Positions 26,556-50,900 of a stretch of DNA of 64,000 bases are shown one piece after another. The notes below the pieces were generated by a model that did no database searches, had not been told where the DNA came from, and saw only the letters and a program-made list of their open reading frames with translations. The stretch is from a virus. Position numbers and translations under genes: made by a program. Numbering within the stretch: the first letter of the stretch is position 1; each line of letters opens with the position of its first letter. The stretch lies in IMG/VR virus record IMGVR_UViG_3300025676_000013; one strand, written 5' to 3'.

Positions 26556-29500
26556 TTATACTTCCCAAACATCTTTGAGTGTAATAATACCCCTCATATT
26601 CTCAAGGTTGCCATCGTATCTACTAGAAGTGTAAAGTAATGACGCAGGAGTTCCTAGTGTCCAAGATTGAGTTTTGAATGACCAAGAGTCGTTCAGCGTG
26701 TGTCCGTTTGGATTCTCGAACTGAATCATAATACCATTCTTGTAGTTAGTACCAGCAGTGTTATTTGCAGAGAATTCAGAATCATTCGTATTGCCCTCTG
26801 GTCCAAACAATGCTAAGTCTACATTGACATTATTAATAGATGCGCCTTGCAATAGAACTGGGCCAGCAACAATTATGACAGGAGTCTTATATGCAGTTCC
26901 AGGATTAGTGAATTCGATAGATGAAACATTACCATTCAATCCTAATACTACCGTTCCTTCTGCCCCGTAACCAGTTGGTTCTGCGTGTTCATCTACAACA
27001 ATGACTCGTGTTTCGCCAGGAACATAATCTGCCCAATCTTCGACAATCGTTCCAGCCCCGATACCATTATTAAGAGATACACTTCCTACAAAACCACTTC
27101 CGACTGATTTAGTGCTTGAGCCAACTAGGCCACCAGCATCTGAAACTACAATCATCGGTTCGTCATAGTTAGTTCCACGTGTAGTTAATACAATGTCAGT
27201 TACTACGTTATTAAGGTCTTGAGTAAGAACTGCGCCTGAACCAGTATCTAATGGGTCATTGATAGTAAACTCAACATCGACATAATTAGAACCCGGTTTA
27301 ACAACAGTTATTGAAACAATTTCACCAATCGTAATTGGTGCAGTCCAAGTACCTGAACCAGCAACACACGTTGCTTCGTCTGAGAATGCAACATCTGAAC
27401 AAGAACCTGGTACTGCTTCAGTAGTTAGAACTGGTCGAACAATTGCACCTGAACCATATAGAGTACCAGTCATATTGCCTGTGATATCATACTGCGGAGT
27501 TCCCGTAGGGTCCATCACAACGATTTTAGTTTCTGGTGAGTATCCTGTACCACGATTGGCTACACCAACAGAGGCAATAGAACGATTAGTTTCTACAGTT
27601 GCGTATGCTCCTTCTCCTGGCCCAGATACATCAACTATGTTCACTATATCAGTAAGTGTATATCCTTGTCCAGGTCTGTCTACAGCAATATTGATAATTG
27701 TTCCTGCGGCATCGACTGTAGCAAGTCCTCGAACTCCTCCACCAGTAGGTGAATTGATATCAACAAAAACGCTATTATCACGTACCCAAAGGGTTGCTTT
27801 AATGTTTGTGTCATTATCATCATAGAGGTCATACTTATCTGTGATTTCACATTCTTTAGTAATTACGTATGTGAAAACAGCATTCTGAGGTACGTCACCA
27901 GAATCAAACATCCCACCTGCGTGAGTAATTGTATGTGCTTGAATATCTAAGTTTGTAAACTCTAGAGTATCTCCAACATTAGCAGAGATAATAGATGGAA
28001 CAAAAGCGTTGTTCTGAATATCGACACTTACTGTTTTAGCAGTAGTATCCGTATATCCTGTACCAGCGACTGATACTGCGAATCCAGCAATTCCGCCGTC
28101 AACTAGTGACATTGAAGTTGCGGCTGCCACAGTAGGAGTTCCACCTGTAATTGCAACACTGTCAGCGACAACATAATCTGCTCCGCCATCTGTAATTGTT
28201 ACAAAATCTACACTGTCATCTTCTTTAAGAGTAACATATCCAGCCGCAAGTCCACCAGTTGAAGTGGTGAAAGTAAGCGTGATAGTAGGATTAACAATGT
28301 GAGTAGTAACTTCCCTTGGATGAACGTGAGCACCGTTTGTTGCAGTGAATTCAAATGATTGATTGAATACGTTCCAAGATACTGTTTGGTCGTGAGTGTG
28401 ACCCGCATCAACCGTAGTTGATAGAACAGGAGTTCCCGATTTAATAAGATTAACTTCAGTCTGGGTTAGATGAACTGTATGAGTATGTCCATCTCCACCT
28501 GGTACTGCGGCAACCGCTACTTCATAGTATCCAGTATATCCTGCACCAGGAGTTTCAACTTTAACTTCTTCTACCATTCCATCTTTCAATGTGAATGAAG
28601 AAACCGCTTTAGTTTCTACTGAGCCCGCTACATCAACTGCTCCCTTATCAAATGCTCGTACTGAAGTATTTGCTGACCATTTAGTACCACCGTTTGTGAT
28701 TACGACATCTGAAACACCATCATCATAAACTGCGTTAAGTATTGCTCCAGTTCCTTGTTTTCCATTTGCATCAACTGTGTATGCGTAAGAATCAATAAAT
28801 CCAGAGTCATCATTGATGAACACTTTATAAATTAGTCCGTCTGATAATTCTTTTACGTATGATTCGCCTGAAATATTATACTCATAAGAACGTGTAAAAT
28901 CGTCAAGTAGTGCGACAATTGGGTCAAAATATTCTTCACAAGTAGTAGGAGTATCATAACTTCCACCAGAACCATCGATATCCGATGCGTTGTGCATTGC
29001 AGTCACGCCCCAACCAGTCACTGAACTTGTAGCATCGTGACAATAAGATTGGAAAGGCTTGAATAGAACTGTATCGTAATGTTCTGCAAAGTTTCCTGTT
29101 ACACCATTATTGTAAACAGTATTACCAGTAATGTCTGTAATTTTGACATAATCTCCACTGTCAACTCCACCAAACATAAGTGCGGCATCTGCGCCACGTC
29201 TTAGAATAAGTTCTGGGTTGTCTGTGTCTGGGATAGAAGTGTTATTAAGAATAGTTAAGTCTACTGCAGGGTCACCATTAATTTCGTGTCCCGTTGCTCT
29301 GAATGTAGTAACTCCACCAACTGTGGTATTCTTGTTAATATCATATGCTTTAATCTTAGTAACTGAGGTAGAACCTGTAGCCGTTTCAATATCAAGTTTT
29401 AAGTGATGTTGGAATGGTCGTGGCTCTCCTACAATCTGCATACTTTCACCAAATGATACAATTGCACCAGATGTTGGATTATATGAAATGTGGTGAGTCT

Positions 29501-30140
29501 TATTAGGACCCTCTTCAGCAAACGTAATATTACCTTCTGCATTGTAGAGATAATCAGTAAATCCGATTTCTCTAGTCATCGTGACTTCAGAAAGTAGAGT
29601 ATTCGTTTGATGGATAGAATATCCAGAATCGGCTGCGCCAGAAGTATATTGCGATAAGTTCGCAAGCATATCTGCTAGTGCTTGAGCAATAATAGAATCC
29701 TGATACGCAACGTGACCAGTATAATCAGTCGTTAATTGCGATAGGCTGTTTGTTAAATTCGTTTCAAGAGTATTAGCGTGATTTGATAGAACATTTCCTG
29801 CATCATTGGCCCAAGGGACGAATGTTGCATTGACGAATCCTTGAACCTCATCGTTCATATAGGTTTCTACAGCGTTCATAGCCGTATTTGTTCTAACAAC
29901 TACCTCATTCTTGAAGGTATTCTGTTGATTTTCTAAAGGAGTTGAGATATTATCATTCAACCAGTTCTTCATTGATGCGGCCATCGCATTCAACTTAGTC
30001 GGTATCATAACCGCTGGTGTATTTGTGTATATCTCTACTTCTTCGGTAAACGCCGTGACATCGACACTATCAAATGTAATATCTGGTATGTCATTGAACG
30101 GGTCAACCGCAGTAGTTATGCTTGATAGTGTTACGGACAT
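26556..30140 (-). CDS. Large virion structural/fibre protein (1194 aa) with His module, cupredoxin-like fold and GxGY repeats
   Basis: Repeated V.V...G.GY...P.I.I units; GHTHTVHL...GHTH...AHVH; IQNNAFVPSIISANVGDTLEFTNLDIQAHTIT; late promoter upstream. Confidence 0.7.
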   Translation of the reverse strand: MSVTLSSITTAVDPFNDIPDITFDSVDVTAFTEEVEIYTNTPAVMIPTKLNAMAASMKNWLNDNISTPLENQQNTFKNEVVVRTNTAMNAVETYMNDEVQGFVNATFVPWANDAGNVLSNHANTLETNLTNSLSQLTTDYTGHVAYQDSIIAQALADMLANLSQYTSGAADSGYSIHQTNTLLSEVTMTREIGFTDYLYNAEGNITFAEEGPNKTHHISYNPTSGAIVSFGESMQIVGEPRPFQHHLKLDIETATGSTSVTKIKAYDINKNTTVGGVTTFRATGHEINGDPAVDLTILNNTSIPDTDNPELILRRGADAALMFGGVDSGDYVKITDITGNTVYNNGVTGNFAEHYDTVLFKPFQSYCHDATSSVTGWGVTAMHNASDIDGSGGSYDTPTTCEEYFDPIVALLDDFTRSYEYNISGESYVKELSDGLIYKVFINDDSGFIDSYAYTVDANGKQGTGAILNAVYDDGVSDVVITNGGTKWSANTSVRAFDKGAVDVAGSVETKAVSSFTLKDGMVEEVKVETPGAGYTGYYEVAVAAVPGGDGHTHTVHLTQTEVNLIKSGTPVLSTTVDAGHTHDQTVSWNVFNQSFEFTATNGAHVHPREVTTHIVNPTITLTFTTSTGGLAAGYVTLKEDDSVDFVTITDGGADYVVADSVAITGGTPTVAAATSMSLVDGGIAGFAVSVAGTGYTDTTAKTVSVDIQNNAFVPSIISANVGDTLEFTNLDIQAHTITHAGGMFDSGDVPQNAVFTYVITKECEITDKYDLYDDNDTNIKATLWVRDNSVFVDINSPTGGGVRGLATVDAAGTIINIAVDRPGQGYTLTDIVNIVDVSGPGEGAYATVETNRSIASVGVANRGTGYSPETKIVVMDPTGTPQYDITGNMTGTLYGSGAIVRPVLTTEAVPGSCSDVAFSDEATCVAGSGTWTAPITIGEIVSITVVKPGSNYVDVEFTINDPLDTGSGAVLTQDLNNVVTDIVLTTRGTNYDEPMIVVSDAGGLVGSSTKSVGSGFVGSVSLNNGIGAGTIVEDWADYVPGETRVIVVDEHAEPTGYGAEGTVVLGLNGNVSSIEFTNPGTAYKTPVIIVAGPVLLQGASINNVNVDLALFGPEGNTNDSEFSANNTAGTNYKNGIMIQFENPNGHTLNDSWSFKTQSWTLGTPASLLYTSSRYDGNLENMRGIITLKDVWEV

Positions 30141-30174
30141 TGTATTTTATCTCCAAAATTGTATTCTTCTGATA

Positions 30175-30182: not shown

Positions 30183-30210
30183 AGAACTAAATTCATAATC
30201 ATATCGTATA

Positions 30211-33200
30211 TTATGGAATCACTAGAGAAGATACTTCTCTAAATTGAGTTCCGTCTGCGTTTTCAACTATTACATCATATGTTCCAGAAGCCAGTCCACC
30301 TTGGTCATCGACCATTGCCAGATTATTAACATCTGTGAACTGGTAACTTGGACTATTTGCCACTGGTCCTGTACCCGGAGTGCTAGTAAGTTCTACCCAC
30401 ACTACAGTACCATTTCCACCAGATACAAATCCTGCTCCAAGTATAAACCAATTAGACGGGTCTATCTCCGTGACCGATATGATTCTTAATGTATCTCTAA
30501 CATTGAATAAGGTTGGAGCAGTTGCGGTATCTCCATCAGTATTTGTAATTATAAACTCTTGGTCTCCAAGTGGAGTTAGAGGATTGATAACAAAATTAAC
30601 TTTAGTAGGCAACAAGACTGCTTGTGAAACCTGTTCGACTCCACCGAGTGTGATTGTCCATAATGGGTCAATACCATCACCAACTACTTCGACTGTATCT
30701 CCCGCCATTGCTGAGACTACTGTAGTATCCCAAGTTCCTCTTGGTGCAATACATTCTGCTTCAGTCGTGAAGTTAGCATCAGAACAATGTGCTGGAACTT
30801 CAGGAGTCCAAGTGCCTCTTGGTGCGATACAAGTTGCTTCAGTCGTATATGAAACGTCAGTACAAGTACCTGGGGTCCAAGTATTATTCGCTGAAGTCCA
30901 AGTATTATTCGCTGAAGTCCACGTACCTGCATTATTTTCACAAGATACTTGGTCATAGTAAGAACCGATAGAACAAGTTCCCTGAGCCAGACAGTTAGTT
31001 TCGTTATTGTTATATACTGGATTAGAACAAGTTCCTTCCATTATACAATCTGCTTCAGTATTATTTGCCGATGCTGAACAACTTCCTGCAGTCCAAGTTC
31101 CGAATGGTTCTACACAACCTGCTTCAGTAGTATAAATTCCATCAGAACAGAATTCTGTTGCGAGTCCCGTCCAAGCACCGTTTATTGTTTCACAATCTAC
31201 AGAGTTGTAGTATAATGGATTAGAACAAGATGGGGTTATTGCCGATACTGCTCTATTACCAAACTCAATACTCATAGTGGAAATCATAATTGGTGGATTA
31301 AGAATTTCATTAGAACGCTTGTTAACGTCATAGTAATCTTCAACTACAGATTCTCCGAATGATTCAAGAGTACGCATTCCAGCGATTGGCTGTCCAACGT
31401 AATCTGCATTCTTCATATCAAGATGGTTGTTTGCCCATCGCTCTTCTCCTCCGATTGGAACTCCGAAGACGTTCATTGAACGTGCTAACAATAGATACTC
31501 ATCAGATGAAAGATTAGGAACAGATTTTACTGAGATGTTATCCCAATAAGTGAATCCATTTCCAGTAGTTGAAAGAGTTAAGAATGCGTTACCCGTAACA
31601 GGTGCAGTAAAGATAAAGTCTTTAGAGCCGTCTGTGTCGTTCGCCGCAATCACCATACTTCCATACGCATCTGAATCAGGCGTAGGACCAATCTTAACGA
31701 TTGAATCAGTAGGTCTATCAATATCGAATGATACTTTATAATTCAATTTATCAGTAACTTCAAAACTAATATGTGCAATACCTCTTGCAGAAGTACCGAC
31801 ACCAGATGTATATATTTGTTGAGTATTTTGATTTACATAAGCCTCTGCACCTTGCTGAGGTGAGAATGTCCATTTCTCTTCGATTTCTCTAACAGAAACA
31901 TCATCAATACTTCCTTGAAATCCCGTATTAGTATAATAAGGACTATAATTTTCAGGTCGATTATTATCTACAGTAGATATGAAGTGAATTTTGCTATCCG
32001 CAGAACCCGCTCTAACGTGATGTGTACGTTGTCCGCTTGGAACAAGTCCAGTTGTATCAGCATCAAGAACTGGGATATCTTCTTCGTGTAATGATACAGA
32101 ATTGATTAATCCAGTTCCATTCATTCGTAGAACAAACTGGTCACTGGCTTCACCTATCAAATCGAGATGATGAATACCAGATGTAGTAATCGTTTTCTGA
32201 AGAACTCCGCCAATCAAGATTTCAATTGATGGGTTATTAGCAGATGTTCCAATCAATGCTAGTGTCTCGTGTCCTTCAGGAATAGTTTGACTAACTAGAA
32301 TATAACTTCCAGTATCATAACTAATAGTGAATTCGTGAGTATATGTATCAGCGTGATAGGCATCAGTCTGAGGGAATGTTCTTGTGCGAGTTGCATCAGC
32401 CATCAACCAATCAGCATCAACCTGTGTAATCTGGAATTGATGTGAGTGACTTCCGTTAGGACCAGGCCCAACTTGGAAAGTAAGAATATTATGTGTCTCA
32501 AGAACACAATCTAATGTAGTCTCGTAACTAGAGTTTTTGACTAAATTATTCTCTAGAGTATATGTCATTGTTCCATTTACAGAAGAGTTAAAGTTCATCA
32601 CTGCATTAGTAATTGAAACATCAACACCCGAAGCAGTCCAATTGATTTGAAGTGGGTCTACTATATCAAGATTCCAGTTAGCAATCTTATGAGTAGTATC
32701 ACTACCAAGAGCAACTCTTAATCGCCCAGTCATTCCATTATCACTTGGGTCCATATCTGCTAAGGTATACTTAACTTCATATAGTTTGCCAGGAGTAAAT
32801 ACTACTGTCTGATTAATCTCAGTATCAGATAAAATAGTTCCGTCAAGATACGCTTTACCGTTGATTGACTGCCATCCTTCACCCATATACCAAGCATTCT
32901 GTCCAGTAACACGTTCTCTGATTGATATATTATCAATCTTACCTATTCCCGTGTTAGACAATCTCAGTATTGCAGTATTATTAGGAGCGACTACAGTTTC
33001 AGAATAATGTCCTACTAGTGTATTTGCAGTTCCGACAATCGTTGTATCGCCCATCAAGGATGCTGTAAGTGTTCCATTCTCTGCGCCGAATACATCTTTA
33101 AACGACTCAATAATATCATATTGAATTTCGTAAGTGATTCCGTCTTGAACTGTTCCAGTAACAAGTTGTTCGATATGAGCGGCAGTGCCATCAGTTGTAT

Positions 33201-36200
33201 GTGCAGTACCACCGTTTACTTCCCAAGAACCTGTCTCTGTCCAAACAACTTCTTTGAATGAAACATTGTCGAGTAGAATATTTGAACGCTGATTAATATC
33301 AACACTCATATAAACTTTAGCAAGTCCCTCGTGGTTATTTGTTACAAGGAATTGCTCTGAATTAGCACCTTTTATCATTGTAACTGGGTCAATATATTGG
33401 ATAGTACCAAGTTCAATATTCATTGCTTGAATCTTAGGTAGTGCTCCAAGTCCAGTTGCTGTTACTAGATTTCCAAGTTGTAACAAGTCTGCTTGAGTTC
33501 CCGCTACTGGGAACGCATTTGCAGGTTCTGGTTGTACTTGGAAGTAATCATTTCCTGTTCCGTTGTCTATTTGAATTTTATCTTTAATGTGTAATGGAGT
33601 GTACATATTTTCTTGACCGTGATGATAATAAACTACGATATCATCTCCAGCATTAACTACTGGAATGTCAATAATATTGAATGTACCAACCATAGATGCG
33701 TGCCAACCACACTGATAATACAGTGTGTCTGGTGCAACTGAAGGTACAGTAAATTCTACAATCTCATACTTAGGAACTCCTGCGGCATCTAGTCCGAATT
33801 TAGAACCTGGGTCAGTTTGAACCCCTGCTCCTTCTTCTCCTCTAGAACCCGTGACACCCAATAGATACTCACCGAAGTAAGCGCCTGGGGTAAAGTGACT
33901 TCCGTCATCAGTAGTTATATAGAATGGATGACCAGGTGCGTTGACTCTAAATCTATAAGTAGCACCTCTGTATAAGTTAAGAGTTCTGTTTGTTCCCTCA
34001 ATCATTCCTTCTTTATCAAATTTGTATAGTCCGCCATCATCTTCTACTGCGTAGTAGAGATTAGTTTCTCCTGGCGGTACGAATGGCCCAAATCCAGATA
34101 CTCCATCAGCACCTGTTAGACCGAAATCTTCTGGGATTTTCCAAGTAAATTCTTTCGAGAAGTTACCAATCCATTGTGACACTCTCCATTGTGCTAGTCC
34201 AACATCTTCATTTGGATTTAATGCGGTACATACTGAGTAGTCATCGACTCCATTGTAATACCAACCAGTTACATCTAGTTCTTCACACCATCCACTCAAT
34301 CCCATACAAACTGGGAATGGTTGGTCTGAAACCCAAGTTCCTGGGTTATCCTCAAGAGATACAAAGTCGTTTAGAGCCCCAGTTTCAATGGTTAATCCGT
34401 GACTTGCGTTTTTATTAACACAATGATAGCCCTCATTTGGTTCGCCTAAGCCTCGTGTCATACCCGCTTGAACTAGGTTATCCCAGCCTCCACCAGGTAT
34501 TGCTTTAATACCAGCGGCGTGCATATACATATCTTGCATTACACCAGTGAATGGGTCAGGAGCAGTAACGTGTCCTGAAGAACTCCAAGCATTATTTACA
34601 AATGTATATTTACCACCACGGAATAAGTCGAATCCTCCTGCTGTTCCTTCGTTACCACCGAATGCTTCGTGTTCTGCAATGTCTCTTTGATAAGGATAGT
34701 AAGAGATGTTTGACATATCGTGCCAAGACCAGAACCAAGGAGAATCTTGTGCTCCTTCAACTGTAGTCTGGCCAGGGTCAGCGGCTGTAATAGTAGATTG
34801 TGTATCGACAATAATTTCAAATCCGTCTGTGGGTCCGTAACCATCGCCAAGTGCAACAACTGTATGGTTCATCATTGCGCCAGGTAATTCAGTAGGCGTA
34901 TATGGTTGTGGTCCAGATGGTAACTGAACAACATCACCAACTGATAATGCGTGATTGACTGATTTAACAGTTCTTGGTCGAGACCATAGAACTTCTACAC
35001 CAGAGATGAACGGGTCACCAACGTGGTTAGTTAAATCTCGTTCAACTTCGTATCTAAAGGATGCCATATCAGCAACAACTTCATAACTCTCAATAACATT
35101 GAAGAAAGTTGGAGTAGTTCCTGGCGCATTCTCTAGAGGATAAATTACTGTTTCAGTTAATGCAAAGTGGTCCCAATCGATAACATAGTCAACAAAGTAA
35201 TTTGTATTACCGTGATGAATTCCGTTATATACGTTAGTATAGTGTATCTTGTCGCCTGCTTTAAGTTGGTGTCCGTCTGATTCAATACCACGTTCTTTCT
35301 TAACATATCCTGCGATATCTGTGAAAGGCGTTGCGATTGTAGAAGGATTCAAATCATCGCCACCTAAAGCGAAATCATATTTTCCAACTGTGAATTGACT
35401 TGACCCAGGATAGTATACTCTATCAAAATCGTGAATATGTTGGTCAATCGAAATAATTAAATATGTGTCATTTGCAGGGTCGATACATCCAAATTCTACT
35501 GTATGGAAATGCTGTGGGTCAGAAGTTCCGTAATTGGAAGTTCCAATCTTAGTTGCTCCGCCCGTATGACTCCAAGTTCCATCAGTGTCTTGTGTGACTC
35601 CAGTTAATGGACTTGCTTTTAGTGTCGCTTCGTCTGTTATGTCAAGGAGCAATTGATGATAATGACCAAAGTTAGTCAATTCAATATTAGTTCCGCCTTC
35701 GATAACATAGTATTCAGACATACCGTGAGTATGTGAGCCAGTCATTCCAACTATATACATTCCACCAGCACCATTGTTTAGTGCAGGGTCCCAGTTATAT
35801 GTAACAGAGTGAGCGTGAGGAGAGTTATCTCCAGAGCCAGTTCCGTCTGTCGTTGACATTGAAATTACGTTTGTGCCTGTTTGAATAGTAGCGTATTCGG
35901 CAGTTGTGAGTTCACCAGTGTGTATGTGTCCGATAACATTAACGTCATCAAAGAATACATCGACTCGTGCATCACCTTTTTGTACTGCGGTGATAATATA
36001 ATCTTCCCATTTACGCTCTCCAACTCCAACTACTGCTCCGCCACCCGTTGTGCTTCCGCCTGAACCATAACCAGTACCGCCTTGTTCTAGAGTAAGTGAA
36101 GTAATACTACCATCAACTGAGCCTGTTGCTAAAGCATTGACTGTTGGTGAACCACCAACAAATGTAACAGCAGGTGGGCCAGTATATTCAGAACCCGCAT

Positions 36201-37923
36201 TCGTTATTGTTACTGTATCAACAAATCCAGTAGCATCAATCGTACAAGTCGCTTCGGCTTGAATCGCAGTTCCACCATCAGCAACTAATACTCCGAATGG
36301 AGCAGAAATAGATATAGTAGGAACAGATTGATAACCAGTTCCAGGTTCGTCTATAACAATACCCGTGACTGAAGCATCAAATCCTATAGTGCCAGTTGCA
36401 CCAGCACCACCTCCGCCAGAGATATACATTGTCGGGATGTTTGTGTATTGAGAACCACCACTATTTAATGTCAATGCTGTTACTACACCACCAACAACTG
36501 TCGCATCTGCCGAAGCATTTACTGTATTAGAATCATTACCACCTTGGAAGGTGATAACAACTGGAACAGTAGCATTCGGGTCAGTTTCAACGTCACCAGA
36601 CTGAAATGATACTAAGTCAGTAAGTGAAAGGTCGTGATAAAGTGATTCTACTACGTTTTGTGAGCCTGCTCCACCAATTGAGGTACAGAGTTGAGGCATT
36701 ATCTGGCTAATATTATAAGAATTAGATAGTGCAGGTAAGGCTACATTAGCGCCATAGTTAATAGGAATCTTGATTGTATCGCCGGGGTTTAGTCCGTGAT
36801 TCAATGAATAAACAAATCTGTGGTTAGTCGTACTGGACAATCTTCCTTCTTCGAGCGGGTGAAAAGTACAGTGAAAATATAAATCGTGATATCCATCTAC
36901 TACCCAAGCCCACTGTTCACCAGGTGAAAGGTCAGGAGAAGCAAAGGATATATTATCATCAGAAACAGCATTGTGAACCAATATGTTTGTATCTGGATTA
37001 TTAAATATGATTGTGTCGCCTTCTCTCGCTTCGAGATGGTAAGGGACAAGAATATGTGTTTGTGTGTTCGGGTCGTTAATTGCGCCTTCGAACCAGTGAC
37101 CGCCTGTACTTGTACAAGCAGTTTCCATTGCGACAATTGAAGTCAGATATTCTGGTGTGATTACTGTCCAAGTCTCGCCAACACCTTCACAAGTTGCTTG
37201 GTCAGAGATTGAAGGATTATTAGAACAACTGCTACAAGTAGGACGAACTAGAAGTTCGTCTTCTATTACAGAAGCAACAAATGTTCTTGGGGCTGGTCCA
37301 CCACCAACTTCTGAGAAAGTCGCTGTATCAGGAGCAAGCATATCGACCATATTTTTAGCACCTGAAATAAGGTCCCAGTTAACATCATTAACTGTAAGGT
37401 CGTATGAAAATTTGTATTGAGTATTTGGTTTAAGATTTGCTTCAAACCAAGCAAGAGCAACCTGTTGACCATCGGTGTAAGCATCAACAATCTGAGTTCC
37501 CTCAGTAAAGAACCTGTCGAATTGGTATGCAATACCATTCGCCCAAGGACTTGCTACGTTAATTGGTTCATCAAAACCACTATTCTTGAGCAATTCAACT
37601 TCAAACGCATCTGCGGCAAAAGAACTATTTTGAACAAGGTTAGAGGATTCATATGTTATATCGAGACCACCATTCTCAATCATTTCTGTTGGTGATACGA
37701 ATTGTTGTGAACGGCCTGCGACATTAATTAGAAAATCTTTATATTCTGGCAAATGTTCTAGGTTTTCCATTACCTCTAAAGACTTCAGCATAAGAGCCAA
37801 ATCCTTAACAAGAAGGTCAGGAGCATCCAATTTAATGTTCAAAGAGTCCAAGAAGGAACTCTTCTGTTGCTCTATAGTGTTTAATTCTAATAGACTGAAT
37901 TTGTGACCTGTATAATGTGCCAT
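30211..37923 (-). CDS. Giant multidomain virion protein (2570 aa): CBM-like repeats, two cupredoxins, His modules, Cys-module array, IPT/TIG-like C-terminus
   Basis: YFHCTFHPLEEG; GHPF...LYYQCGWHASMVG; repeats ending D[ND][VI]S[FIV][KR]E; C-x10-C-x6-W array; AGDTVEVVGDG...FIITNTDG. Confidence 0.75.
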   Translation of the reverse strand: MAHYTGHKFSLLELNTIEQQKSSFLDSLNIKLDAPDLLVKDLALMLKSLEVMENLEHLPEYKDFLINVAGRSQQFVSPTEMIENGGLDITYESSNLVQNSSFAADAFEVELLKNSGFDEPINVASPWANGIAYQFDRFFTEGTQIVDAYTDGQQVALAWFEANLKPNTQYKFSYDLTVNDVNWDLISGAKNMVDMLAPDTATFSEVGGGPAPRTFVASVIEDELLVRPTCSSCSNNPSISDQATCEGVGETWTVITPEYLTSIVAMETACTSTGGHWFEGAINDPNTQTHILVPYHLEAREGDTIIFNNPDTNILVHNAVSDDNISFASPDLSPGEQWAWVVDGYHDLYFHCTFHPLEEGRLSSTTNHRFVYSLNHGLNPGDTIKIPINYGANVALPALSNSYNISQIMPQLCTSIGGAGSQNVVESLYHDLSLTDLVSFQSGDVETDPNATVPVVITFQGGNDSNTVNASADATVVGGVVTALTLNSGGSQYTNIPTMYISGGGGAGATGTIGFDASVTGIVIDEPGTGYQSVPTISISAPFGVLVADGGTAIQAEATCTIDATGFVDTVTITNAGSEYTGPPAVTFVGGSPTVNALATGSVDGSITSLTLEQGGTGYGSGGSTTGGGAVVGVGERKWEDYIITAVQKGDARVDVFFDDVNVIGHIHTGELTTAEYATIQTGTNVISMSTTDGTGSGDNSPHAHSVTYNWDPALNNGAGGMYIVGMTGSHTHGMSEYYVIEGGTNIELTNFGHYHQLLLDITDEATLKASPLTGVTQDTDGTWSHTGGATKIGTSNYGTSDPQHFHTVEFGCIDPANDTYLIISIDQHIHDFDRVYYPGSSQFTVGKYDFALGGDDLNPSTIATPFTDIAGYVKKERGIESDGHQLKAGDKIHYTNVYNGIHHGNTNYFVDYVIDWDHFALTETVIYPLENAPGTTPTFFNVIESYEVVADMASFRYEVERDLTNHVGDPFISGVEVLWSRPRTVKSVNHALSVGDVVQLPSGPQPYTPTELPGAMMNHTVVALGDGYGPTDGFEIIVDTQSTITAADPGQTTVEGAQDSPWFWSWHDMSNISYYPYQRDIAEHEAFGGNEGTAGGFDLFRGGKYTFVNNAWSSSGHVTAPDPFTGVMQDMYMHAAGIKAIPGGGWDNLVQAGMTRGLGEPNEGYHCVNKNASHGLTIETGALNDFVSLEDNPGTWVSDQPFPVCMGLSGWCEELDVTGWYYNGVDDYSVCTALNPNEDVGLAQWRVSQWIGNFSKEFTWKIPEDFGLTGADGVSGFGPFVPPGETNLYYAVEDDGGLYKFDKEGMIEGTNRTLNLYRGATYRFRVNAPGHPFYITTDDGSHFTPGAYFGEYLLGVTGSRGEEGAGVQTDPGSKFGLDAAGVPKYEIVEFTVPSVAPDTLYYQCGWHASMVGTFNIIDIPVVNAGDDIVVYYHHGQENMYTPLHIKDKIQIDNGTGNDYFQVQPEPANAFPVAGTQADLLQLGNLVTATGLGALPKIQAMNIELGTIQYIDPVTMIKGANSEQFLVTNNHEGLAKVYMSVDINQRSNILLDNVSFKEVVWTETGSWEVNGGTAHTTDGTAAHIEQLVTGTVQDGITYEIQYDIIESFKDVFGAENGTLTASLMGDTTIVGTANTLVGHYSETVVAPNNTAILRLSNTGIGKIDNISIRERVTGQNAWYMGEGWQSINGKAYLDGTILSDTEINQTVVFTPGKLYEVKYTLADMDPSDNGMTGRLRVALGSDTTHKIANWNLDIVDPLQINWTASGVDVSITNAVMNFNSSVNGTMTYTLENNLVKNSSYETTLDCVLETHNILTFQVGPGPNGSHSHQFQITQVDADWLMADATRTRTFPQTDAYHADTYTHEFTISYDTGSYILVSQTIPEGHETLALIGTSANNPSIEILIGGVLQKTITTSGIHHLDLIGEASDQFVLRMNGTGLINSVSLHEEDIPVLDADTTGLVPSGQRTHHVRAGSADSKIHFISTVDNNRPENYSPYYTNTGFQGSIDDVSVREIEEKWTFSPQQGAEAYVNQNTQQIYTSGVGTSARGIAHISFEVTDKLNYKVSFDIDRPTDSIVKIGPTPDSDAYGSMVIAANDTDGSKDFIFTAPVTGNAFLTLSTTGNGFTYWDNISVKSVPNLSSDEYLLLARSMNVFGVPIGGEERWANNHLDMKNADYVGQPIAGMRTLESFGESVVEDYYDVNKRSNEILNPPIMISTMSIEFGNRAVSAITPSCSNPLYYNSVDCETINGAWTGLATEFCSDGIYTTEAGCVEPFGTWTAGSCSASANNTEADCIMEGTCSNPVYNNNETNCLAQGTCSIGSYYDQVSCENNAGTWTSANNTWTSANNTWTPGTCTDVSYTTEATCIAPRGTWTPEVPAHCSDANFTTEAECIAPRGTWDTTVVSAMAGDTVEVVGDGIDPLWTITLGGVEQVSQAVLLPTKVNFVINPLTPLGDQEFIITNTDGDTATAPTLFNVRDTLRIISVTEIDPSNWFILGAGFVSGGNGTVVWVELTSTPGTGPVANSPSYQFTDVNNLAMVDDQGGLASGTYDVIVENADGTQFREVSSLVIP
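30875..30921. repeat. Exact 21-nt tandem repeat (about 2.2 copies) encoding WTSANNT
   Basis: GTCCAAGTATTATTCGCTGAA twice, followed by GTCCA. Confidence 0.9.
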
Positions 37924-43898: not shown

Positions 43899-44909
43899 TT
43901 AGAATTCTACTACGAGTTTCAAATCCTCAATCTGGTCAGATGCACGAGTAATAGCACGCCTGTTCTCAAGATAAATCAACTGTCCACTATCGCTTTCTAA
44001 ACTTACGTCTGCATCAGCATATACGGATGCTTGGGCTTTCGTTCCGCCACCAGCAAGTTCTGGATTACGCAAGAGTCCGATTTGTCGAAAGTCATCGTTC
44101 TCTGGGAATCCGTCTGAAGTCTCAAGTCTAACGTGAATCAATCCGTGGTGAGTTTTCGCTGTAAATATAGAATCTACATCACCGAAATCGGCCTGCTCAG
44201 ACCCTGCAAGAACTCCTGTACCTGAAATAACTGGCATCCAGTCATTGGTAGTAGAGTTAATAATGTCGTTCAATTCTAGTTTATATAAGAATGTCCACGT
44301 ATAGTTGTCAGATGTAGTAATCGCTTGAGCAACTAGTCCAGCGGCATCTCCAGTAAAGCCAGTTGGCTCTTCAGAAGCACCAGTAGGTAACCAAAGTCCA
44401 CCTAAAGTACCTTCACAAGTTGTTCGTGAAACAGCAGTTCCGCCATCAAAGACTCCACCAATATAGCATTTTCCGCCAGATGGTTCGCCTGTACACATAT
44501 AAACTCGATATTCAGAATTCATCACAATACTGTGACTTCCGATTTTTGAAACAAAAGAACGGCCAGGTTCATCAATTCCTGTGATGCCGTTTGCGGCATC
44601 TCCGTCAAATGCGATAGTATCACCTGTTTCCCAGTTAATACGTGGAAGCACGGGTGAGATATCATCATTCTGAATTCGCTTGGTACCAACAATGTCAGTC
44701 CAATATTGTGATTCATCCTCATCAAGAGGGTCAGGTAGAGTAAAGTTACCTGAACTTTCGTCATTTCCTTGAGCATCATTAGGCCAAGCGTCATTTCGCC
44801 CAAACCCTAGATACAGGAAGTTGTCGTCAACAGAACCAGTAGTTTTGAACTGGTCGATGAAAACCATCAAGTTCTGTGTTCTGAATTTACTGGTTACAAT
44901 TGCACCCAT
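43899..44909 (-). CDS. gp8: Baseplate wedge protein, T4 gp8-like
   Basis: AIVTSKFR, YLGFGRNDAWP, VLPRINWETG, VMNSEYRVYMC, DNYTWTFLY, SGQLIYLENRRAITRASDQIEDLKLVVEF. Confidence 0.92.
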   Translation of the reverse strand: MGAIVTSKFRTQNLMVFIDQFKTTGSVDDNFLYLGFGRNDAWPNDAQGNDESSGNFTLPDPLDEDESQYWTDIVGTKRIQNDDISPVLPRINWETGDTIAFDGDAANGITGIDEPGRSFVSKIGSHSIVMNSEYRVYMCTGEPSGGKCYIGGVFDGGTAVSRTTCEGTLGGLWLPTGASEEPTGFTGDAAGLVAQAITTSDNYTWTFLYKLELNDIINSTTNDWMPVISGTGVLAGSEQADFGDVDSIFTAKTHHGLIHVRLETSDGFPENDDFRQIGLLRNPELAGGGTKAQASVYADADVSLESDSGQLIYLENRRAITRASDQIEDLKLVVEF

Positions 44910-44999: not shown

Positions 45000-47900
45000 T
45001 TATGCCGGTACTGGCCATACGTTGCTATCGTCTACAGTAGTAGAGTGGACGTGGTCGCCTGCTCCAGAGCCCTGTGTGTTTTGTGACCACTGACCACCAA
45101 TTGGAACACTTCCCAAATATGATATTGTATCGTGGTTGTCATAGTCACTTGTTTGTGATATAATGTTATAAGTAGAACCATTCCACTCTAATACTAATTC
45201 GTGAGTGTATACGGCCGCGTGTGTACTATCTCTCTGTGGTGTAGTTACATAAGTTCCACCAATCAAGGATGTATAATCTGCAACACTTATCCAGTAATCG
45301 TGGTCGTGGAATCCACCAGTTAGAGAGAATTTATGCACATATGTAGATGTTCCTGGTATAATATCCCATTGTGAAATACCAGCAACTACAAATGTTCCCT
45401 TTGCTCCCATATTGGGATTAAATTTTATCGTATATCCGTGATAGTGGGAACTGGCTCCGTTTGGAGAATCAAAGAATATAATACCATAGTTGGCATTCTG
45501 AGCATTAATCAAATCATTTGCTTGTGCCAAAGTAATTGGTTCACACGTTCTTCCGACATTAACTCCCGCTGAATCCAAAGAGCATCCATCATAAAGCAGG
45601 TGGTCGTGACTTCCGATACCAGCAATAAACGATGGTTGCATCTGAACAATGGGCGGGTTGTTTGCCTGAAGGACATTATTTACATAAGTTTTTCTTTCCG
45701 TTAAGTCTTCCACTTCGGAAGTTGTTTGACTTGTCGTAACTTCAGACGTAATAACTGGGTCACCAACCGATGTTTCAGTACCATAATCTGAATAGTATAT
45801 AATATCAGTCGTGGTCGTTGTAATCTGGACCGTTGACGTTGTTGTCGTTGTGATTAAATCACTATATGTTACGATAATAGTTGTATCACCAGTCGCAGGC
45901 GTATCTGGATACGTTGTTGTGACTGGTAGTAATTCGGTTGAAGCCTGCGTAACAACAACACTCGGTGCCGCAGAAAGAACTTCATCAGTTGATGTAGTCT
46001 TCGTTATATATATGCTACCACCAGTTTGCTGTGGTATTGCAACTAGATTTGGATTCCAGTCAATTGTCAAGTTATGCCAGTGAAGTCCTTCAGCCGCATT
46101 CTCAACTACAGATACATAATATTTAGTAGGGTCTTGAAGTGAATCTTCAATGCCACCTTTAATCCAAGTCACTGACCAATCAGCATAGAATATATTATAA
46201 TTAGTATCCCATTTAATTCTGTACTCGTGAAAGTGAGCACCCTCAATTGAATCGTAAATAGTAACACTATCTACAACACCATCAATCAGTTGCATACCTT
46301 GGTCAATCGTCATTCCGTGAGCGTAAGAAATCTGTCCAGTCAAAGCCCCTTCTGCAAATGGTCCCACAACTGTATCATTATGAAAGTGAGGGTGAGAACC
46401 ACCTGGATAAGGATATCCAGGAGAAGCAAATGTCGGTAGAATTTCCATCATCTCATTATAACCTGGTCGTGAAAACAGATTAGAGATGTTCGTTGGATGT
46501 GCGTGTGACCTTGGGTCTGCGGAATAGAATTGATGTCCGTCAGATGATTCCCATTTCTCAGTATCTAACGCAACGAAACTTAATGTATTTGGGTCGTATG
46601 TAATTGTGATTCCGTGATAATGGTCTCCGCCTGAGATAGATGTATATGTTTTTACTTCAGTCACTTCACCATTAATCAAATCAGTTGCTTGATTATCATC
46701 TAATGGTAATGCTTGTCTGCCAGTGTGTGTTCCGAGAGTGTCTAATGTTGTTCCGTTAAATGCGTGTAGATGGTCTGGTTCAGAGCCTTCTAATTTATGC
46801 CAATCGTGTGCATTTGATAATGTAACATCAGGAGCAGTATACAATGGTGTACCATTCCAACCAAGATGGGTCGTTATACCATTAACTAAAAGGGTATGCT
46901 CGTGAGTTCGTAGATGTGTATCTACTGCTTCCCATTCTCCAGTACCGTTTTCATCCCACATCTCAGCCATTTCGTCTGCAACAAATTGTTGCGTAGAAAG
47001 ATTCCACATAATTTTATATACGTGATAATGTTGATGCTGGCCAGAATCTTCAATAGAAGAATAAACATAAAATGCGTTTACTACTCCATTAGCAAGTTCT
47101 TCTGCTTGTATTCTCGTAATCGGTACAGCCGTTCTACCATCATTAGCACCAAATGTATCTAGTGTCTCACTATTGAAATAGTGGATGTGAGCGTTCTCGC
47201 CATATTCGTTTGCTCCAAGTATCTCTACTACGGGAGCAGTCTCAATATAAAATGTTCCGTCATCATCGTCATCATCGACAGCAAGATAAGGCGTATCAGA
47301 GCCTGTGTCGTATGGTTCCCAAACTAGAGTTAGAGGATTCAAATGCCATCCAGCAGATGAACCAAGAAGAATATTTTCATCTACTATTCCAGTCCACGAA
47401 GTAATTACAGGATGCAAGTGAGAGACAGGAGTATTATAAGTCCATATAGGGAAGAAAGCATCCCAGTCAGTCATTTCAATATCAGATATCTCAGTTGCAG
47501 AGAATAATTCTGTGTTAATGTCGTATACTACTTTATATCCGTGAACGTGAGCCGTTTCAGAAGCAGGGATTTGTGAAGATGCACCCGTTTCTGTAGAGGA
47601 ATCATATGTATCAGTTAGTTTGTATATATCACAATTCTGTGGGCCAGTTCCTTGATAACTATCAATACCAATTCTTGTAGCCATATAAAGTTCGCCATTA
47701 GTGTCTTCACCTAATGTCAATATAGATTGGTCGTGAGTTGTTAAGTTCAATACAGATGTTGCAGGGTCCCAGAAAGATAAATTCTTTCTTGTATATCCTA
47801 CATCGCCATTGTATTCGATAAATGTGAATACATCGTGGTTCTCCATATTCGTTTGTGCTATCAGATTCCAAGTATTGAAAGCCGCATTCCATATAATGGA

Positions 47901-50900
47901 GAATGTGTGAGTATAACTTTCAGCGTGAACCGTATCACTCTGAACAACAACAATTGGTGTTCCAGGATTCGCTTGAGCCATCGCAACTTGACTCGGAGTT
48001 AATATAGCCTCGTGACTATGATTTGCTCCATTGATTGCATTAGGAGTTATTGTGAAGTGTGCAGAAAGTCCATCAGGATTTTCTTCTAGTGAAAAGAGAT
48101 GACCAGTAGTACCAGCCCAACTCGTACTCCAATCTCCGAATATGTATTTGCCTTGAAGTCCAGTTAAGTCACTTCCCCTATAGATGAATCCACCTAAGAT
48201 AGAAATACCAGTTCCGTGACTGTACTCGTGAATAGGTGATTTTAAATCAAGAAGAAATGCTTGAGTATTTGCATAGCCTTGGTCTAATGCCATTTGGTCA
48301 ATAGTTGCTTGGTCTTCTTCAAAGTAATGATATGCTTCCATTACTCTCCAACCATAGTTGCCGCCCTTTTCGATAATGTTTACTTCTTCAAATTTATTTT
48401 GTCCAACATCAGCCGCCCATAGTTTACCATCTGGAGCAAAAGAGAATCTCCAAGGATTTCTTAATCCGTATGCCCATATCTCTTCTCTAAACATTGCACC
48501 CGCAGTACCGTGTGGTTTTGCATTTACACCAGTGAAGGGGTTATCGGAAGGTATGGAATAAGGTTTATTATTAACTGTGTCTGGTGCGACATCAATTCTA
48601 AGAATTGTGCCCAATATGTTAGTAGGGTTCTGTGCATTACCATATACTCCGTGTCCGCCGTGACCGCTAGAACTCGAAGTATCTCCCGCATTTCCGCCGT
48701 CACCGAATCCGATATAGAGATAACCATCTGGGCCAAATACTAATTGACCACCGTTATGATTCATATCAGGTTGTGGCTGTGTGATTAAAATTCGTTCAGT
48801 AGTAATATCAACTGTCTCTGCCGCAACGTCAGCCGTGAACTCAGCAATGATTGAAGTTGAAAGAGGATATCCGTATGAGCCAGTAGATGGACCTTGCTCT
48901 GTCATATAATAGACATACAAGAGTCCGTTTGTTGCGTAATCTGGATGGAATGCAAGTCCTAGAGCGCCACGTTCATCATATGCACCGAATGGCCCGACTC
49001 CGATAGTCAGATTAAGAGAAGTGTAGTCGAAAAATAATGATTTGACACCAGACGTAGTATCCATCAAGTGAATGATTCCAGATTGGTCTACAATACAGAT
49101 TTTATCTGGGTCCATCGGATACGCTACAATAGTCGCAATGTCTGTGCCTGTACCCATCTTAACATCCCCTAGTAAATCTCCAGTATCACCAGAGCCAGGA
49201 ACTTGTTGAATATAGTTAGATGAATATAATTCTACCCAGTCTACATTAGGTACTAGCGTAGCAGGGAAAGTCTGTGCGTGTTGGAATGTAAATGATGCTT
49301 CACCAATTGCAGTAGCAACCGTGGCATCATCAAGTTCATTGAATACATTCTGTCCGAGATTCATTGTGTTACCAGAATAATCAACACCGTCAATTAAACT
49401 AGGGTCAACCACAAGTTCTGGTTTATAGTTATAACATATCCACGTAGTAACTGGCGTATATCTAAATCCGTGCGTACAAGGATTACCCATAAAGTCAGTA
49501 TTCATTTCCCAGTCTGATTCGTATGTGACTAGGTACTCGTGATAATGTGCAGAGGTAATTCCATTTGAATCGGCTACCGTACCGCCTTGGAAGACGCCAT
49601 TTTCATCTGTCTCAGGGACCCCGTTGGTAGTTATTCCGATACTATCGTAAAGAGTTACGTCTGTGATATCTCCGTCAATTAATTTTCTTGCATCGGCTCT
49701 TGATAGAGGGTCAGATACACGACCACGTTGTCTGTCTACAATTTGACCATCTACAAATCTATGAACGTGACCCGTTGCTTCAGGCAAGAATGCAGTCGTA
49801 TGAACATCTGCAAGGAATTCTGGAATTTCAAAAGCATCAGAATTCATTAATGCTCTTGCTTGAGAATAACTTAGTCCGTGAGCCGTTGCTTCTTTTCCGT
49901 GAACCATTAAATTAGGTATTGCACTTCCATCAAAACTATGAACGTGAAACGCTGCCGCTCCAACACTCATCAATGGAAGTTCAAGTCCTTTAGTAAGACT
50001 TGTAGATACTAGTGGTGCGAAACCATTCTTTCTTCCGTGGGAATGGATTACATTAGGGTTATCAAACGCCTGTATCTGAACCGCATCAATAACGTCATTT
50101 GTATTCCCGTATACTTTTTTAACTAGTGTGTCTTCTCGACCACTCTCGAATGCGCCGTAACTCTTTTCAGGAGCGTATTCGGCTTCTTGCATAAACGATT
50201 CAACCCATTCAACAACTCTAGAAAGATGTTTGAATACGGACAATTCATAAACGTCACAAGAAATCATTCTACCGTCTGTGGTATTCTCTAGATTATCCTC
50301 AATGCCTAATTCAGTAACAGAAGGTGGGAACTCTTCAATAGGTAGAACTCGGAGAAGATTAGTAAATTCAAATACAACCTTCTCAGGCCAAGCATTAATC
50401 TGGTTCTTGATTTCATCACGGAGAATATTAATTTGATAGAGTTTCTCTGTAAGTTTGGTACCAATAGTCTTGATTTCATTTTTATCAGTTACTATATCAA
50501 CCCCTACGTGTTCACCAGGAGCACCCCAATTATCAGGAGTTACTAAGGCAGCCCTTGAATCGAGATTACCCATCATTTCAATGATATATTCGTCAAAGCC
50601 TTTCTCAATGAAGACTCCAAATCCAGTATGAGCCCTTCCGACTGAACCGTGTTGTTCGCTCTCTTGGTCCCAGATATCAACCGCGACATCAAGATAAGAG
50701 AATATCGCAATAATCATCTTGACGTAATCGGTAGGTAATTCGATTACCAAATCAACTGTAGACCTAAACGAGAACTCAGCAAATAATTTCAGTCCAACAG
50801 GGTGAACTAGTTTTTTAAGAACTTCTCTATACGACTGAATAGGTACATCACTTCGGATAACATAAGAGAAATCTTGGTAGTAGTCATTATCTTGGAGTTT

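What the first reader, a model, noticed from the sequence alone, without database searches (positions are those of the whole stretch)
28315..49950. A repeated triple-HxH module spread over three giant virion proteins
Seen: a 60-100 aa unit, HxH-x3-[LI][TS]-x2-[EQD]A-x2-L-x2-G...[ST]...HxH-x3-[IV]-x-[WY][DN]...HxH. It occurs once in the 1194-aa protein (28315-28495), three times in the 2570-aa protein (35420-35935 twice, 32270-32460) and about ten times in gp7 (45040-49950; about 20 HxH by manual count). A subtype reads TH[AE]xxYTHE. Known: HxH pairs bind Fe in the trimeric T4 gp37 tip, the basis of the 'Ferrojan horse' idea. Inferred: these look like monomeric beta-hairpin/helix metal-binding domains on the baseplate rather than gp37-type needles. 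They could give over a hundred metal sites per particle for scavenging, baiting metal-uptake receptors or feeding the cupredoxins.
Basis: partly seen in the sequence, partly recalled or inferred. Interest (0 to 1): 0.82.

Follow-up and report, generated by a model that had tools for sequence, protein, structure and literature searches.

The report
Unnamed triple-His-pair domain in phage baseplate
Three giant baseplate-region proteins of an uncultured ocean phage carry twelve copies of a small, so far unnamed protein domain with three strictly conserved histidine pairs. It most likely grips one metal ion per copy, but metal binding has not been shown.

Summary
A 65-115 aa module with three HxH pairs occurs once in the 1194-aa protein, three times in the 2570-aa protein and eight times in the gp7-like wedge protein. 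One gp7 copy is split in two by about 740 residues.

- **Homology:** profiles built without one protein still find that protein (E 1e-5 to 5e-13).
- **Conservation:** motif histidines are invariant at 38 of 42 positions in gp7 orthologs of 55-81% identity, against 34% for other residues.
- **Databases:** Pfam, NCBIfam, PHROGs and PDB sequences do not cover the module.
- **Structure:** AlphaFold2 gives a compact strand-helix-sheet domain (pLDDT 87 and 74). No PDB fold matches it (best Z 4.2).
- **Distribution:** a profile search of 1.84 billion proteins found only 38 clusters. Most others are tail or virion proteins of unrelated uncultured phages; one is a Tat-exported bacterial lipoprotein family with six HxH each.

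My best reading is a single-chain metal-stapled domain, unlike the three-chain HxH needles of T4 gp37. Metal binding, the identity of the metal and any scavenging or bait role remain untested. The scan noted the same kind of modules earlier in another ocean phage genome (e1-5763055).

The parts
26556..30140 (-). 1194-aa virion-region protein (P0001) carrying one module
   Evidence: ORF list and translation. No Pfam family passes its threshold. Orthologs at 75-97% identity on IMG/VR contigs.
28305..28499 (-). Module A1 (aa 548-612): HTH ... HTH ... HVH, the short canonical form
   Evidence: Found by an HMM trained without this protein, E 1e-5. AF2 gives pLDDT 74.1 with strand-helix-strand-strand-strand order.
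30211..37923 (-). 2570-aa protein (P0002) carrying three modules
35716..35940 (-). Module B1 (aa 662-736): HIH ... HAH ... HTH
35422..35676 (-). Module B2 (aa 750-834): HYH ... HFH ... HIH, with a long insertion in the loop before the second HxH
32260..32460 (-). Module B3, subtype B (aa 1822-1888): HSH ... H-x3-Y-x-H ... E-G-H
45000..52271 (-). gp7-like baseplate wedge protein (P0003, 2423 aa) carrying eight modules and a GSDH/HHIP-type beta-propeller
   Evidence: Pfam Baseplate_wedge (E 1.3e-7) and GSDH (E 7e-33). phrog_17744 baseplate wedge subunit, E 2.5e-45. It lies between gp6 and gp8 homologs.
49782..49958 (-). M0: N-terminal half of a split module (aa 772-830; HVH plus helix plus first strand)
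   Evidence: It matches HMM positions 8-47 only. Joined in silico to M3 it scores as one full module: 41 bits over positions 8-96, against 14.5 and 21.8 bits for the halves apart.
49470..49781 (-). M1 (aa 831-934): HVH ... HYH ... T-H-G, with a long loop insertion
47829..48032 (-). M2, subtype B (aa 1414-1481), nested inside a blade of the propeller
   Evidence: The alignment to HHIP (2wfx) leaves 134 query residues where HHIP has 35.
47400..47561 (-). M3: C-terminal half of the split module (aa 1571-1624; HVH-strand-strand-HLH)
   Evidence: It matches HMM positions 46/57-96 only. The same half-module follows the propeller in all four orthologs examined.
46884..47201 (-). M4 (aa 1691-1796): HIH ... 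HQHYH ... HEH
46485..46784 (-). M5 (aa 1830-1929): HLH ... HYH ... HAH; this is the unit folded with AF2
   Evidence: AF2 gives pLDDT 86.6 and pTM 0.78, with a helix at 36-43 and strands at 50-53, 61-70 and 75-85 of the 115-aa construct.
46062..46406 (-). M6 (aa 1956-2070): HPHFH ... HFH ... HWH
45288..45620 (-). M7 (aa 2218-2328): HDH ... HYH ... a degenerate third motif (Y-V-H) that abuts the first HDH of M8
45003..45320 (-). M8, subtype B (aa 2318-2384), plus the C-terminal G-D-H-V-H (aa 2403-2423), which the HMM aligns as its third motif
   Evidence: HMM alignment 2314-2420 covers positions 2-100.

Best explanation
**What it is.** The region encodes twelve copies of a previously unnamed globular domain, here called the tri-HxH domain. 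The copies sit as beads, and as inserts nested in loops, in three giant baseplate-region proteins. The phage is an uncultured marine T4-like myovirus of about 150 kb; its nearest cultured relatives are in the Kyanoviridae, with portal identity of 50% or less.

**Shown.**
- The copies are homologous.
- Four histidines are invariant, and two more ligand positions vary only to Tyr-plus-a-shifted-His or to Glu/Asp.
- The predicted fold is an N-terminal extended segment or strand, then a helix, then a three-stranded sheet, then a C-terminal segment.
- No database names the domain.
- It also occurs in tail and virion proteins of unrelated uncultured phages and, in rearranged order, in Tat-exported bacterial lipoproteins.

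**Inferred.**
- The three His pairs lie on the N-terminal segment, at the start of the central strand and on the C-terminal segment. They converge on one metal ion.
- The ion is taken up while the protein folds in the host cytoplasm. Fe(II) or Mn(II) are the most available there; Ni or Zn are possible.
- The ion staples the two ends of the domain to its core. This gives a small rigid unit whose N and C termini lie side by side, so it can be dropped into loops of other domains.
- On the virion the copies probably act as stable spacer or decoration units, possibly with weak surface adhesion. This would be like the Ig-like domains of other phages, but held by a metal.
For: **Repeat homology.** Leave-one-out HMMs recover the omitted protein; alignments A1, A2 and A4.

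**Conservation.**
- Over 105 non-identical instances, His frequency is 95%, 92%, 75%, 100%, 66% and 81% at the six positions. The substitutions are Y (with a new His four residues upstream) and E/D, which are ligand-like replacements.
- H11, H13, H42 and H66 are invariant across 40 sequences that include unrelated phages.
- 38 of 42 motif His are invariant in six gp7 orthologs, against 34% of non-His residues.

**Structure.** The AF2 models are compact. pLDDT is 91 for the block holding the first His pair, although DSSP assigns that pair no strand or helix.

**Termini close together.**
- M2 is nested in a propeller blade.
- M0 and M3 score as one module split by about 740 aa, and this layout is conserved in orthologs.
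- The bacterial relatives carry the three HxH in rotated order. hhalign to the phage profile gives 87% probability, E 4e-6.

**Cofactor hint.** 30 of 32 full-length bacterial relatives have a twin-arginine signal. Tat export of pre-folded, cofactor-loaded proteins is established knowledge, not tested here.
Against: - No metal was measured or modelled.
- The tools give no coordinates, so I could not check that the six imidazoles are within bonding distance of one point.
- The AF2 alignments are shallow (51 and 40 rows), and the second model is only moderate (pLDDT 74).
- Every experimentally known HxH site in phage tails lies on a three-fold axis, so a multi-chain site is not excluded.
- The bacterial relatives have no conserved metal-related gene neighbourhood.
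- The virion role is pure inference.
Confidence: 0.6

Rival explanations
1. The sites are gp37-type and shared between chains. Each HxH pairs with the same motif of two other chains on a three-fold axis, so each module would line up three metal ions in a trimeric fibre.
For: All solved phage HxH sites are of this kind: T4 gp37 and gp12, and the P2 gpV apex (established knowledge; literature). Several distant carriers of the module hit PHROG tail-fibre, tail-spike and fibre-connector families, which are usually trimeric.
Against: - AF2 folds a single chain into a compact helix-plus-sheet domain with pTM 0.78.
- gp7 is a single-copy wedge subunit in T4 (established knowledge).
- One module is nested in a propeller blade and one is split around the propeller. 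That is hard to reconcile with a continuous three-fold axis.
- The profile does not match any PDB chain, gp37, gp12 and gpV included, even at E 10.
Confidence: 0.12
2. The histidine cluster is not a structural metal site. It is a ligand-binding or catalytic surface, for example for anionic groups of the host envelope (phosphate, sulfate or carboxylate of LPS or capsule), or a protonation switch.
For: The carrier proteins are baseplate and fibre proteins, which are placed to touch the cell surface. The conserved Asp before the second HxH (78%) and the [WYF]-[ND] after it could belong to a binding groove.
Against: - Six to seven conserved His/Asp residues in 70 aa, with H-to-E/D and H-to-Y-plus-shifted-H replacements, is the pattern of a coordination shell.
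- The same shell is kept in twelve copies and in unrelated phages with presumably different hosts.
- The Tat signals of the bacterial relatives point to a cofactor.
- Seawater pH is stable, so a pH switch has little to sense.
Confidence: 0.15
3. The sites serve metal traffic: scavenging trace metals, mimicking a metal-loaded ligand to dock on uptake receptors ('Ferrojan horse'), or supplying the cupredoxin-like domains.
For: There are many potential sites per particle: at least 48 from gp7 if it is present six-fold as in T4 (inference). Cupredoxin-like motifs sit in the same 2570-aa protein (H...C-x2-H-x2-M at aa 1329-1413). The ortholog contigs and proteins come from metagenome collections only, some labelled Tara Oceans.
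Against: - No evidence of exchangeable binding. Buried six-His sites such as that of gp37 are structural and non-exchanging (established knowledge).
- The module also occurs in phage proteins without cupredoxins or the propeller.
- The bacterial relatives are not near uptake systems.
Confidence: 0.08
4. The HxH excess is chance, or a by-product of His-rich composition.
For: The counts for the 1194-aa protein alone are only modestly significant (P about 0.01).
Against: gp7 has 22 against 3.5 expected, with 0 of 5000 shuffles reaching that. Cross-protein HMM detection works, and the motifs are conserved in orthologs and in unrelated phages.
Confidence: 0.01

Closest known systems
HxH metal sites of phage tail fibres and spikes (T4 gp37 tip, PDB 2XGF; T4 gp12; P2 gpV apex)
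   Same: Both have paired histidines (H-x-H, often after Gly) in virion tail proteins. Six histidines per presumed site would allow octahedral coordination, as in gp37.
   Different: There, three chains each give one HxH on a three-fold axis of an intertwined beta needle. Here, three HxH lie in one 65-115 aa chain predicted as a helix-plus-sheet globule. It has no sequence similarity to any PDB chain. It is found nested in loops of other domains.
Ig-like / FN3-like decoration domains of phage structural proteins
   Same: Both are small, independently folding modules. They are repeated in tandem or inserted in large virion proteins, and they are shuffled between proteins and between phage lineages.
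   Different: The predicted fold differs (best PDB match Z 4.2). The tri-HxH domain has a conserved polyhistidine shell that Ig-like domains lack.
Tat-exported bacterial lipoprotein family with six HxH (P0042-P0073; Myxococcota and Bacteroidota MAGs; all 'hypothetical')
   Same: The two share an HxH - helix (xTxxQFxxLxxG) - strand - GHxH - strand core. hhalign gives 87% probability, E 4e-6. There are three HxH per repeat.
   Different: The third HxH comes before, not after, the core, which looks like a circular permutation. Each repeat ends in a conserved Cys. The proteins are cellular and exported, not virion proteins.
T4 gp7 baseplate wedge protein
   Same: The N-terminal 520 aa of the 2423-aa protein match the Baseplate_wedge Pfam family and gp7-type PHROGs. 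The gene lies between gp6 and gp8 homologs.
   Different: To my knowledge T4 gp7 is described without HxH modules or a propeller; I did not scan it here. The cultured relatives Melnitz and S-MbCM100 have no match to the module anywhere in their genomes.

Membership tests
T4 gp37-type HxH needle (PDB 2XGF) | Recurrent H-x-H pairs in a tail protein | tested here: met
   32 HxH in the three proteins, far above the shuffle expectation.
T4 gp37-type HxH needle (PDB 2XGF) | Sequence similarity to the gp37 tip or a related fibre family | tested here: not met
   The module profiles match no PDB chain of gp37, gp12 or gpV, even at E 10. No Pfam fibre family lies on the modules.
T4 gp37-type HxH needle (PDB 2XGF) | Each metal site is built from three chains on a three-fold axis of an intertwined beta structure | tested here: inconclusive
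   Only monomer AF2 could be run. It gives a compact helix-plus-sheet domain. Nesting in a propeller blade argues against an axial needle.
T4 gp37-type HxH needle (PDB 2XGF) | Bound Fe(II) | not testable with these tools
   Needs ICP-MS or an anomalous-scattering structure.
Any curated protein family (Pfam-A, NCBIfam, PHROGs) | A profile match over the module above threshold | tested here: not met
   - Pfam: no family on the modules in the window proteins at E up to 0.1, and none on the module in 30 distant carriers.
- NCBIfam: none.
- PHROGs: the hits cover other parts of the proteins only.
Known folds in the PDB | Structural match of the predicted domain | tested here: inconclusive
   Foldseek against PDB and BFVD: nothing better than E 0.2. 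VIA-align over 48,161 chains: best Z 3.8 and 4.2, below the noise level stated by the tool.
Proposed tri-HxH domain family (phage tail proteins plus Tat lipoproteins) | HxH - [LI][TS]xx[QE]AxxLxxG helix - strand - HxH-strand ending [WY][DN] - strand - HxH | tested here: met
   All twelve window copies and 105 ortholog instances fit. Of the 34 non-ortholog clusters returned from 1.84 billion proteins, nearly all show the same pattern; P0022 and P0027 look like false positives.
T4 gp7 baseplate wedge subunit (for the 2423-aa carrier) | N-terminal wedge domains and synteny gp6-gp7-gp8 | tested here: met
   PF23786 at E 1.3e-7. phrog_17744 at E 2.5e-45. gp6 and gp8 homologs flank the gene.

The most novel reading that the evidence does not exclude
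The tri-HxH unit is a new protein fold that builds, within one chain, the six-histidine metal cage that phage fibres otherwise assemble from three chains. Because the metal ties its two ends together, it behaves as a plug-in domain. It is nested in a propeller blade, and one copy is itself split by a 740-residue insert in Russian-doll fashion. It has spread between unrelated phage tail proteins and into Tat-exported bacterial lipoproteins. It would load each virion of this ocean phage lineage with roughly 50-120 tightly bound transition-metal ions.
Probability: 0.45. Interest if true: 0.75.

Novelty: new variant of a known kind. Interest (0 to 1): 0.6.

Why it matters
Histidine-pair metal sites in phage tails are the basis for the idea that marine viruses hold a share of colloidal iron. 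All solved examples are three-chain needles. A single-chain, repeatable version that no database names would have three consequences:

- It would give structural biology a new small metal-binding fold.
- It would change estimates of metal per virion for an ocean phage lineage that recurs in metagenome assemblies, some labelled Tara Oceans.
- It would offer a compact module whose termini meet, which is useful as an insertable metal-dependent domain.

It also links phage tail proteins to an uncharacterised family of Tat-exported bacterial lipoproteins.

Tried and rejected
- **Single-sequence phmmer** of one unit against the window ORFs found no other copy. The units are too diverged, and profiles were needed.
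- **megablast and tblastn** of the gp7 C-terminal part, the 1194-aa protein and a distant two-module protein against 50,697 GenBank phage records gave no match.
- **Window's own genome:** none is held for this window.
- **Foldseek (PDB, BFVD) and VIA-align wide** on two models gave no match above noise.
- **ESM Atlas by features** returned only viral 'hypothetical' clusters at a chance-level score of 0.81. The first attempt failed because the protein was too long.
- **Gene neighbourhoods of four bacterial relatives** were examined for metal-uptake genes. Two have a ThiS/MoaD-like gene nearby, and one has molybdopterin genes and Nramp, but nothing is conserved across the four. I dropped this as a clue to the metal.
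- **Cluster look-up for names:** all carriers come from metagenomes and are unnamed, or named only for other domains such as 'plastocyanin' or 'glucose/arabinose dehydrogenase'.
- **Literature searches on HxH in phages** returned only the trimeric fibre cases.
- **M7 and M8 sharing one HxH:** I considered this. The alignment instead gives M7 a degenerate third motif (Y-V-H) that abuts the first HDH of M8.


Full report
**Context**

The window is the structural block of a T4-like myovirus, with nearly all genes on the minus strand. PHROG and Pfam scans identify:
- major capsid protein (723-1925), scaffold, portal (5659-7167), sheath and large terminase;
- two carbamoyltransferases;
- gp5-, gp48- and gp6-like proteins (gp6 at 52290-54050) and a gp8-like protein (43899-44909);
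- between gp6 and gp8, a 2423-aa protein whose N-terminal 520 residues are gp7-type baseplate wedge domains.

Downstream of gp8 lie a DUF4815 protein of 1812 aa, then the 2570-aa and 1194-aa proteins. The portal is only 50% identical to that of the OM43 phage Melnitz and 46% to cyanophage portals. The giant proteins have no tblastn match in 50,697 GenBank phage records. Orthologs at 51-97% identity exist on IMG/VR contigs and in other metagenome collections, some labelled Tara Oceans, on contigs of up to about 150 kb. No genome is held for the window.

HxH counts against shuffle expectation:

| Protein | Observed | Expected |
|---|---|---|
| 1194-aa | 3 | 0.43 |
| 2570-aa | 7 | 1.7 |
| gp7 | 22 | 3.5 |
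| 1812-aa neighbour | 0 | 0.43 |

For gp7, none of 5000 shuffles reaches 22 (Poisson P 3e-11).

The motifs are parts of one module. MAFFT aligns eleven window units with invariant histidines and a shared [LI][TS]xx[QE]AxxLxxG helix segment. Single-sequence phmmer does not link the units, but profiles do. An HMM trained without a given protein finds that protein among all 229 window ORFs at E 1e-5, 5e-7 and 5e-13, and nothing else scores below E 0.07.

**Module map**
- The 1194-aa protein has one module (aa 548-612).
- The 2570-aa protein has three (aa 662-736, 750-834 and 1822-1888).
- gp7 has eight. M1 and M4-M7 are a longer form, with an extra F-[ND]-G...G-R segment after the first HxH. M2 and M8 are subtype B.
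- One gp7 module is split. Residues 772-830 match only the N-terminal half of the profile (14.5 bits). Residues 1571-1624 match only the C-terminal half (21.8 bits). Joined in silico they score as one full-length module (41 bits over profile positions 8-96).
- Between the two halves lie M1, about 165 residues of unknown kind, and the GSDH/HHIP-type propeller.
- The break falls in the loop before the second HxH. That is the same loop that carries long insertions in M1 and B2.
- The C-terminal half-module is found after the propeller in all four orthologs examined, down to 55% identity.
- M2 is itself nested in a propeller blade. Where HHIP has 35 residues between two aligned segments, gp7 has 134.

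**Conservation**
- Over 105 non-identical instances from the window and 21 related loci, His frequency at the six motif positions is 95%, 92%, 75%, 100%, 66% and 81%.
- The departures are patterned. Where the fourth position is Tyr, a His appears four residues upstream (subtype B, H-A-x-x-Y-x-H). The fifth position is then Glu or Asp.
- An Asp before the second HxH is kept in 78% of instances.
- In six full-length gp7 orthologs (55-81% identity), 38 of 42 motif histidines are invariant. The figure is 44% for other histidines and 34% for non-His residues.
- In an alignment that adds eight proteins from unrelated phages, four histidines are invariant.

**Not a named family**
- Pfam-A shows nothing on the modules of the window proteins at E up to 0.1, or on 30 distant carriers. 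NCBIfam has nothing. The PHROG hits cover other parts of the proteins.
- Profiles of the module match no PDB chain. T4 gp37, gp12 and P2 gpV are therefore not sequence relatives.

**Predicted structure**
- With a 51-row alignment, AlphaFold2 folds gp7 unit M5 (115 aa) at mean pLDDT 86.6 and pTM 0.78. It has a helix (36-43) and three strands (50-53, 61-70, 75-85). The second HxH opens the central strand. The block holding the first HxH scores pLDDT 91 although DSSP assigns that pair no strand or helix.
- The short unit of the 1194-aa protein (79 aa, 40 rows) gives pLDDT 74.1 and pTM 0.62, with a construct-edge strand followed by the order strand, helix, three strands and a short C-terminal strand.
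- Foldseek against PDB and BFVD finds nothing better than E 0.2. VIA-align against 48,161 representative chains peaks at Z 3.8 and 4.2, below what the tool calls informative.
- The tools return no coordinates, so I could not measure whether the six imidazoles meet. This is the main gap in the argument.

**Distribution**
- A profile search of 1.84 billion representative proteins found only 38 clusters at E up to 1e-3. Four are orthologs of the window proteins.
- Most of the rest show the full pattern, in one or two copies, inside otherwise unrelated proteins of 100-1300 aa.
- As a set they hit PHROG tail-fibre, tail-spike, tail and baseplate-connector families.
- Two that I looked up lie on phage contigs. 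One is next to a GH108 lysin and upstream of SU10-type adaptor, portal and capsid genes.
- All are from metagenomes and none carries a name for the module.
- The genomes of Melnitz and Synechococcus phage S-MbCM100 have no match, whereas two IMG/VR relatives have 11-12 each.

**Bacterial relatives**
- One cluster, P0042 with P0029, is a family of about 210-aa proteins from Myxococcota and Bacteroidota MAGs.
- 30 of 32 full-length members start with a twin-arginine signal followed by a Cys, and nearly all have exactly six HxH.
- Their two repeats read NHGH ... HxH-VTITxAQFxxLxxG ... GHxH-VTVTC. This is the phage core, with the third His pair placed before the core instead of after it.
- hhalign of the phage profile against this family gives 87% probability, E 4e-6.
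- Their gene neighbourhoods are not conserved and are not metal-uptake loci.

**Interpretation**

Several things are shown: a real, conserved, unnamed domain; a ligand-like substitution pattern; a compact single-chain model; nesting and splitting; and a rotated motif order in a Tat-exported relative.

The rest is inferred. The three pairs form one coordination shell around a metal ion taken up during cytoplasmic folding. That ion ties the N- and C-terminal segments to the sheet.
- Nested insertion, a split copy and a circular permutation all require the two ends of a domain to be neighbours. That is what a shared metal site between the first and third HxH would produce.
- Tat export is the usual route for proteins that must bind their cofactor before leaving the cytoplasm. 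This is established knowledge, for example for the Mn cupin MncA.
- Proteins that fold in the cytoplasm tend to pick up Fe(II) or Mn(II), as T4 gp37 does with Fe(II). I cannot tell which metal is used here.

I put the metal-stapled single-chain reading at about 0.6. A three-chain gp37-like arrangement gets about 0.12, and a non-metal ligand or switch surface about 0.15.

With six gp7 per baseplate, as in T4, gp7 alone would give 48 sites per virion. The total would pass 100 only if the other two proteins are present at 18 copies each.

**Relation to earlier notes of this scan**

A follow-up on another ocean phage genome (e1-5763055) described the same combination of propeller, cupredoxin-like domains and about a dozen His modules. 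So this has been found before on other DNA, and my results agree with it. Notes on this genome pointed to the subtype-B unit inside the propeller (e1-5875967), which I confirmed. They also pointed to the propeller (e1-5875961) and to the cupredoxin-like motifs (e1-5875968). I checked the cupredoxin motifs only by locating them.

**Verdict**

The functional part is untested. This is a new variant of a known kind: histidine-pair sites in phage tail proteins, here as an unnamed single-chain domain with no detectable known fold.

Noticed in passing
window 47400-47561 and 49782-49958 (gp7 aa 1571-1624 and 772-830): Two half-modules are complementary: an N-half before and a C-half after the block of M1 plus propeller. 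They score as one full module when joined in silico. This suggests a domain split by an insert of about 740 residues, in Russian-doll fashion, with a further module nested in the propeller.
   Followed up: partly
window 33685-33939 and 36844-36984 (2570-aa protein aa 1329-1413 and 314-360): Cupredoxin-like ligand patterns: H...C-x2-H-x2-M (GHPFY...YYQCGWHASMVG), and H...C-x2-H with Glu in place of Met (HNAV...FHCTFHPLEEG). Pfam does not report them at E up to 0.1. The 1194-aa protein has a weak Cupredoxin_1 hit (E 0.059, aa 698-784) without a Cys ligand.
   Followed up: partly
P0042-P0073 (loci L022, L023, L026, L027): An uncharacterised bacterial family of about 210-aa Tat-signal lipoprotein-like proteins, with two repeats, six HxH and five conserved Cys. 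It is a probable remote relative of the phage module and has no conserved neighbourhood.
   Followed up: partly
L024:8001-10208 (P0014) and relatives P0021, P0028, P0040: A 660-930 aa protein family of uncultured phages carries one or two tri-HxH modules as inserts. The one looked up is SU10-like, next to a GH108 lysin. The host family itself has no Pfam or PHROG name.
   Followed up: no
window 47562-49004 (gp7 aa 1090-1570): By sequence the propeller in gp7 is closest to the Hedgehog-interacting protein propeller (E 1.6e-24), and next to soluble PQQ glucose dehydrogenase (E 2e-18). Whether it binds PQQ was not examined.
   Followed up: no
window 18176-21768: Two tandem carbamoyltransferase genes of about 600 aa (phrog_1601), next to a nucleotide-sugar epimerase and a heptose kinase/adenylyltransferase-like gene, sit inside the tail gene region.
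   Followed up: no
window 30719-31239 (2570-aa protein C-terminal part): A run of short Cys-containing repeats (C-x-D/N...-E-x-x-C...G-T-W-T) precedes the C-terminal Ig-like part.
   Followed up: no
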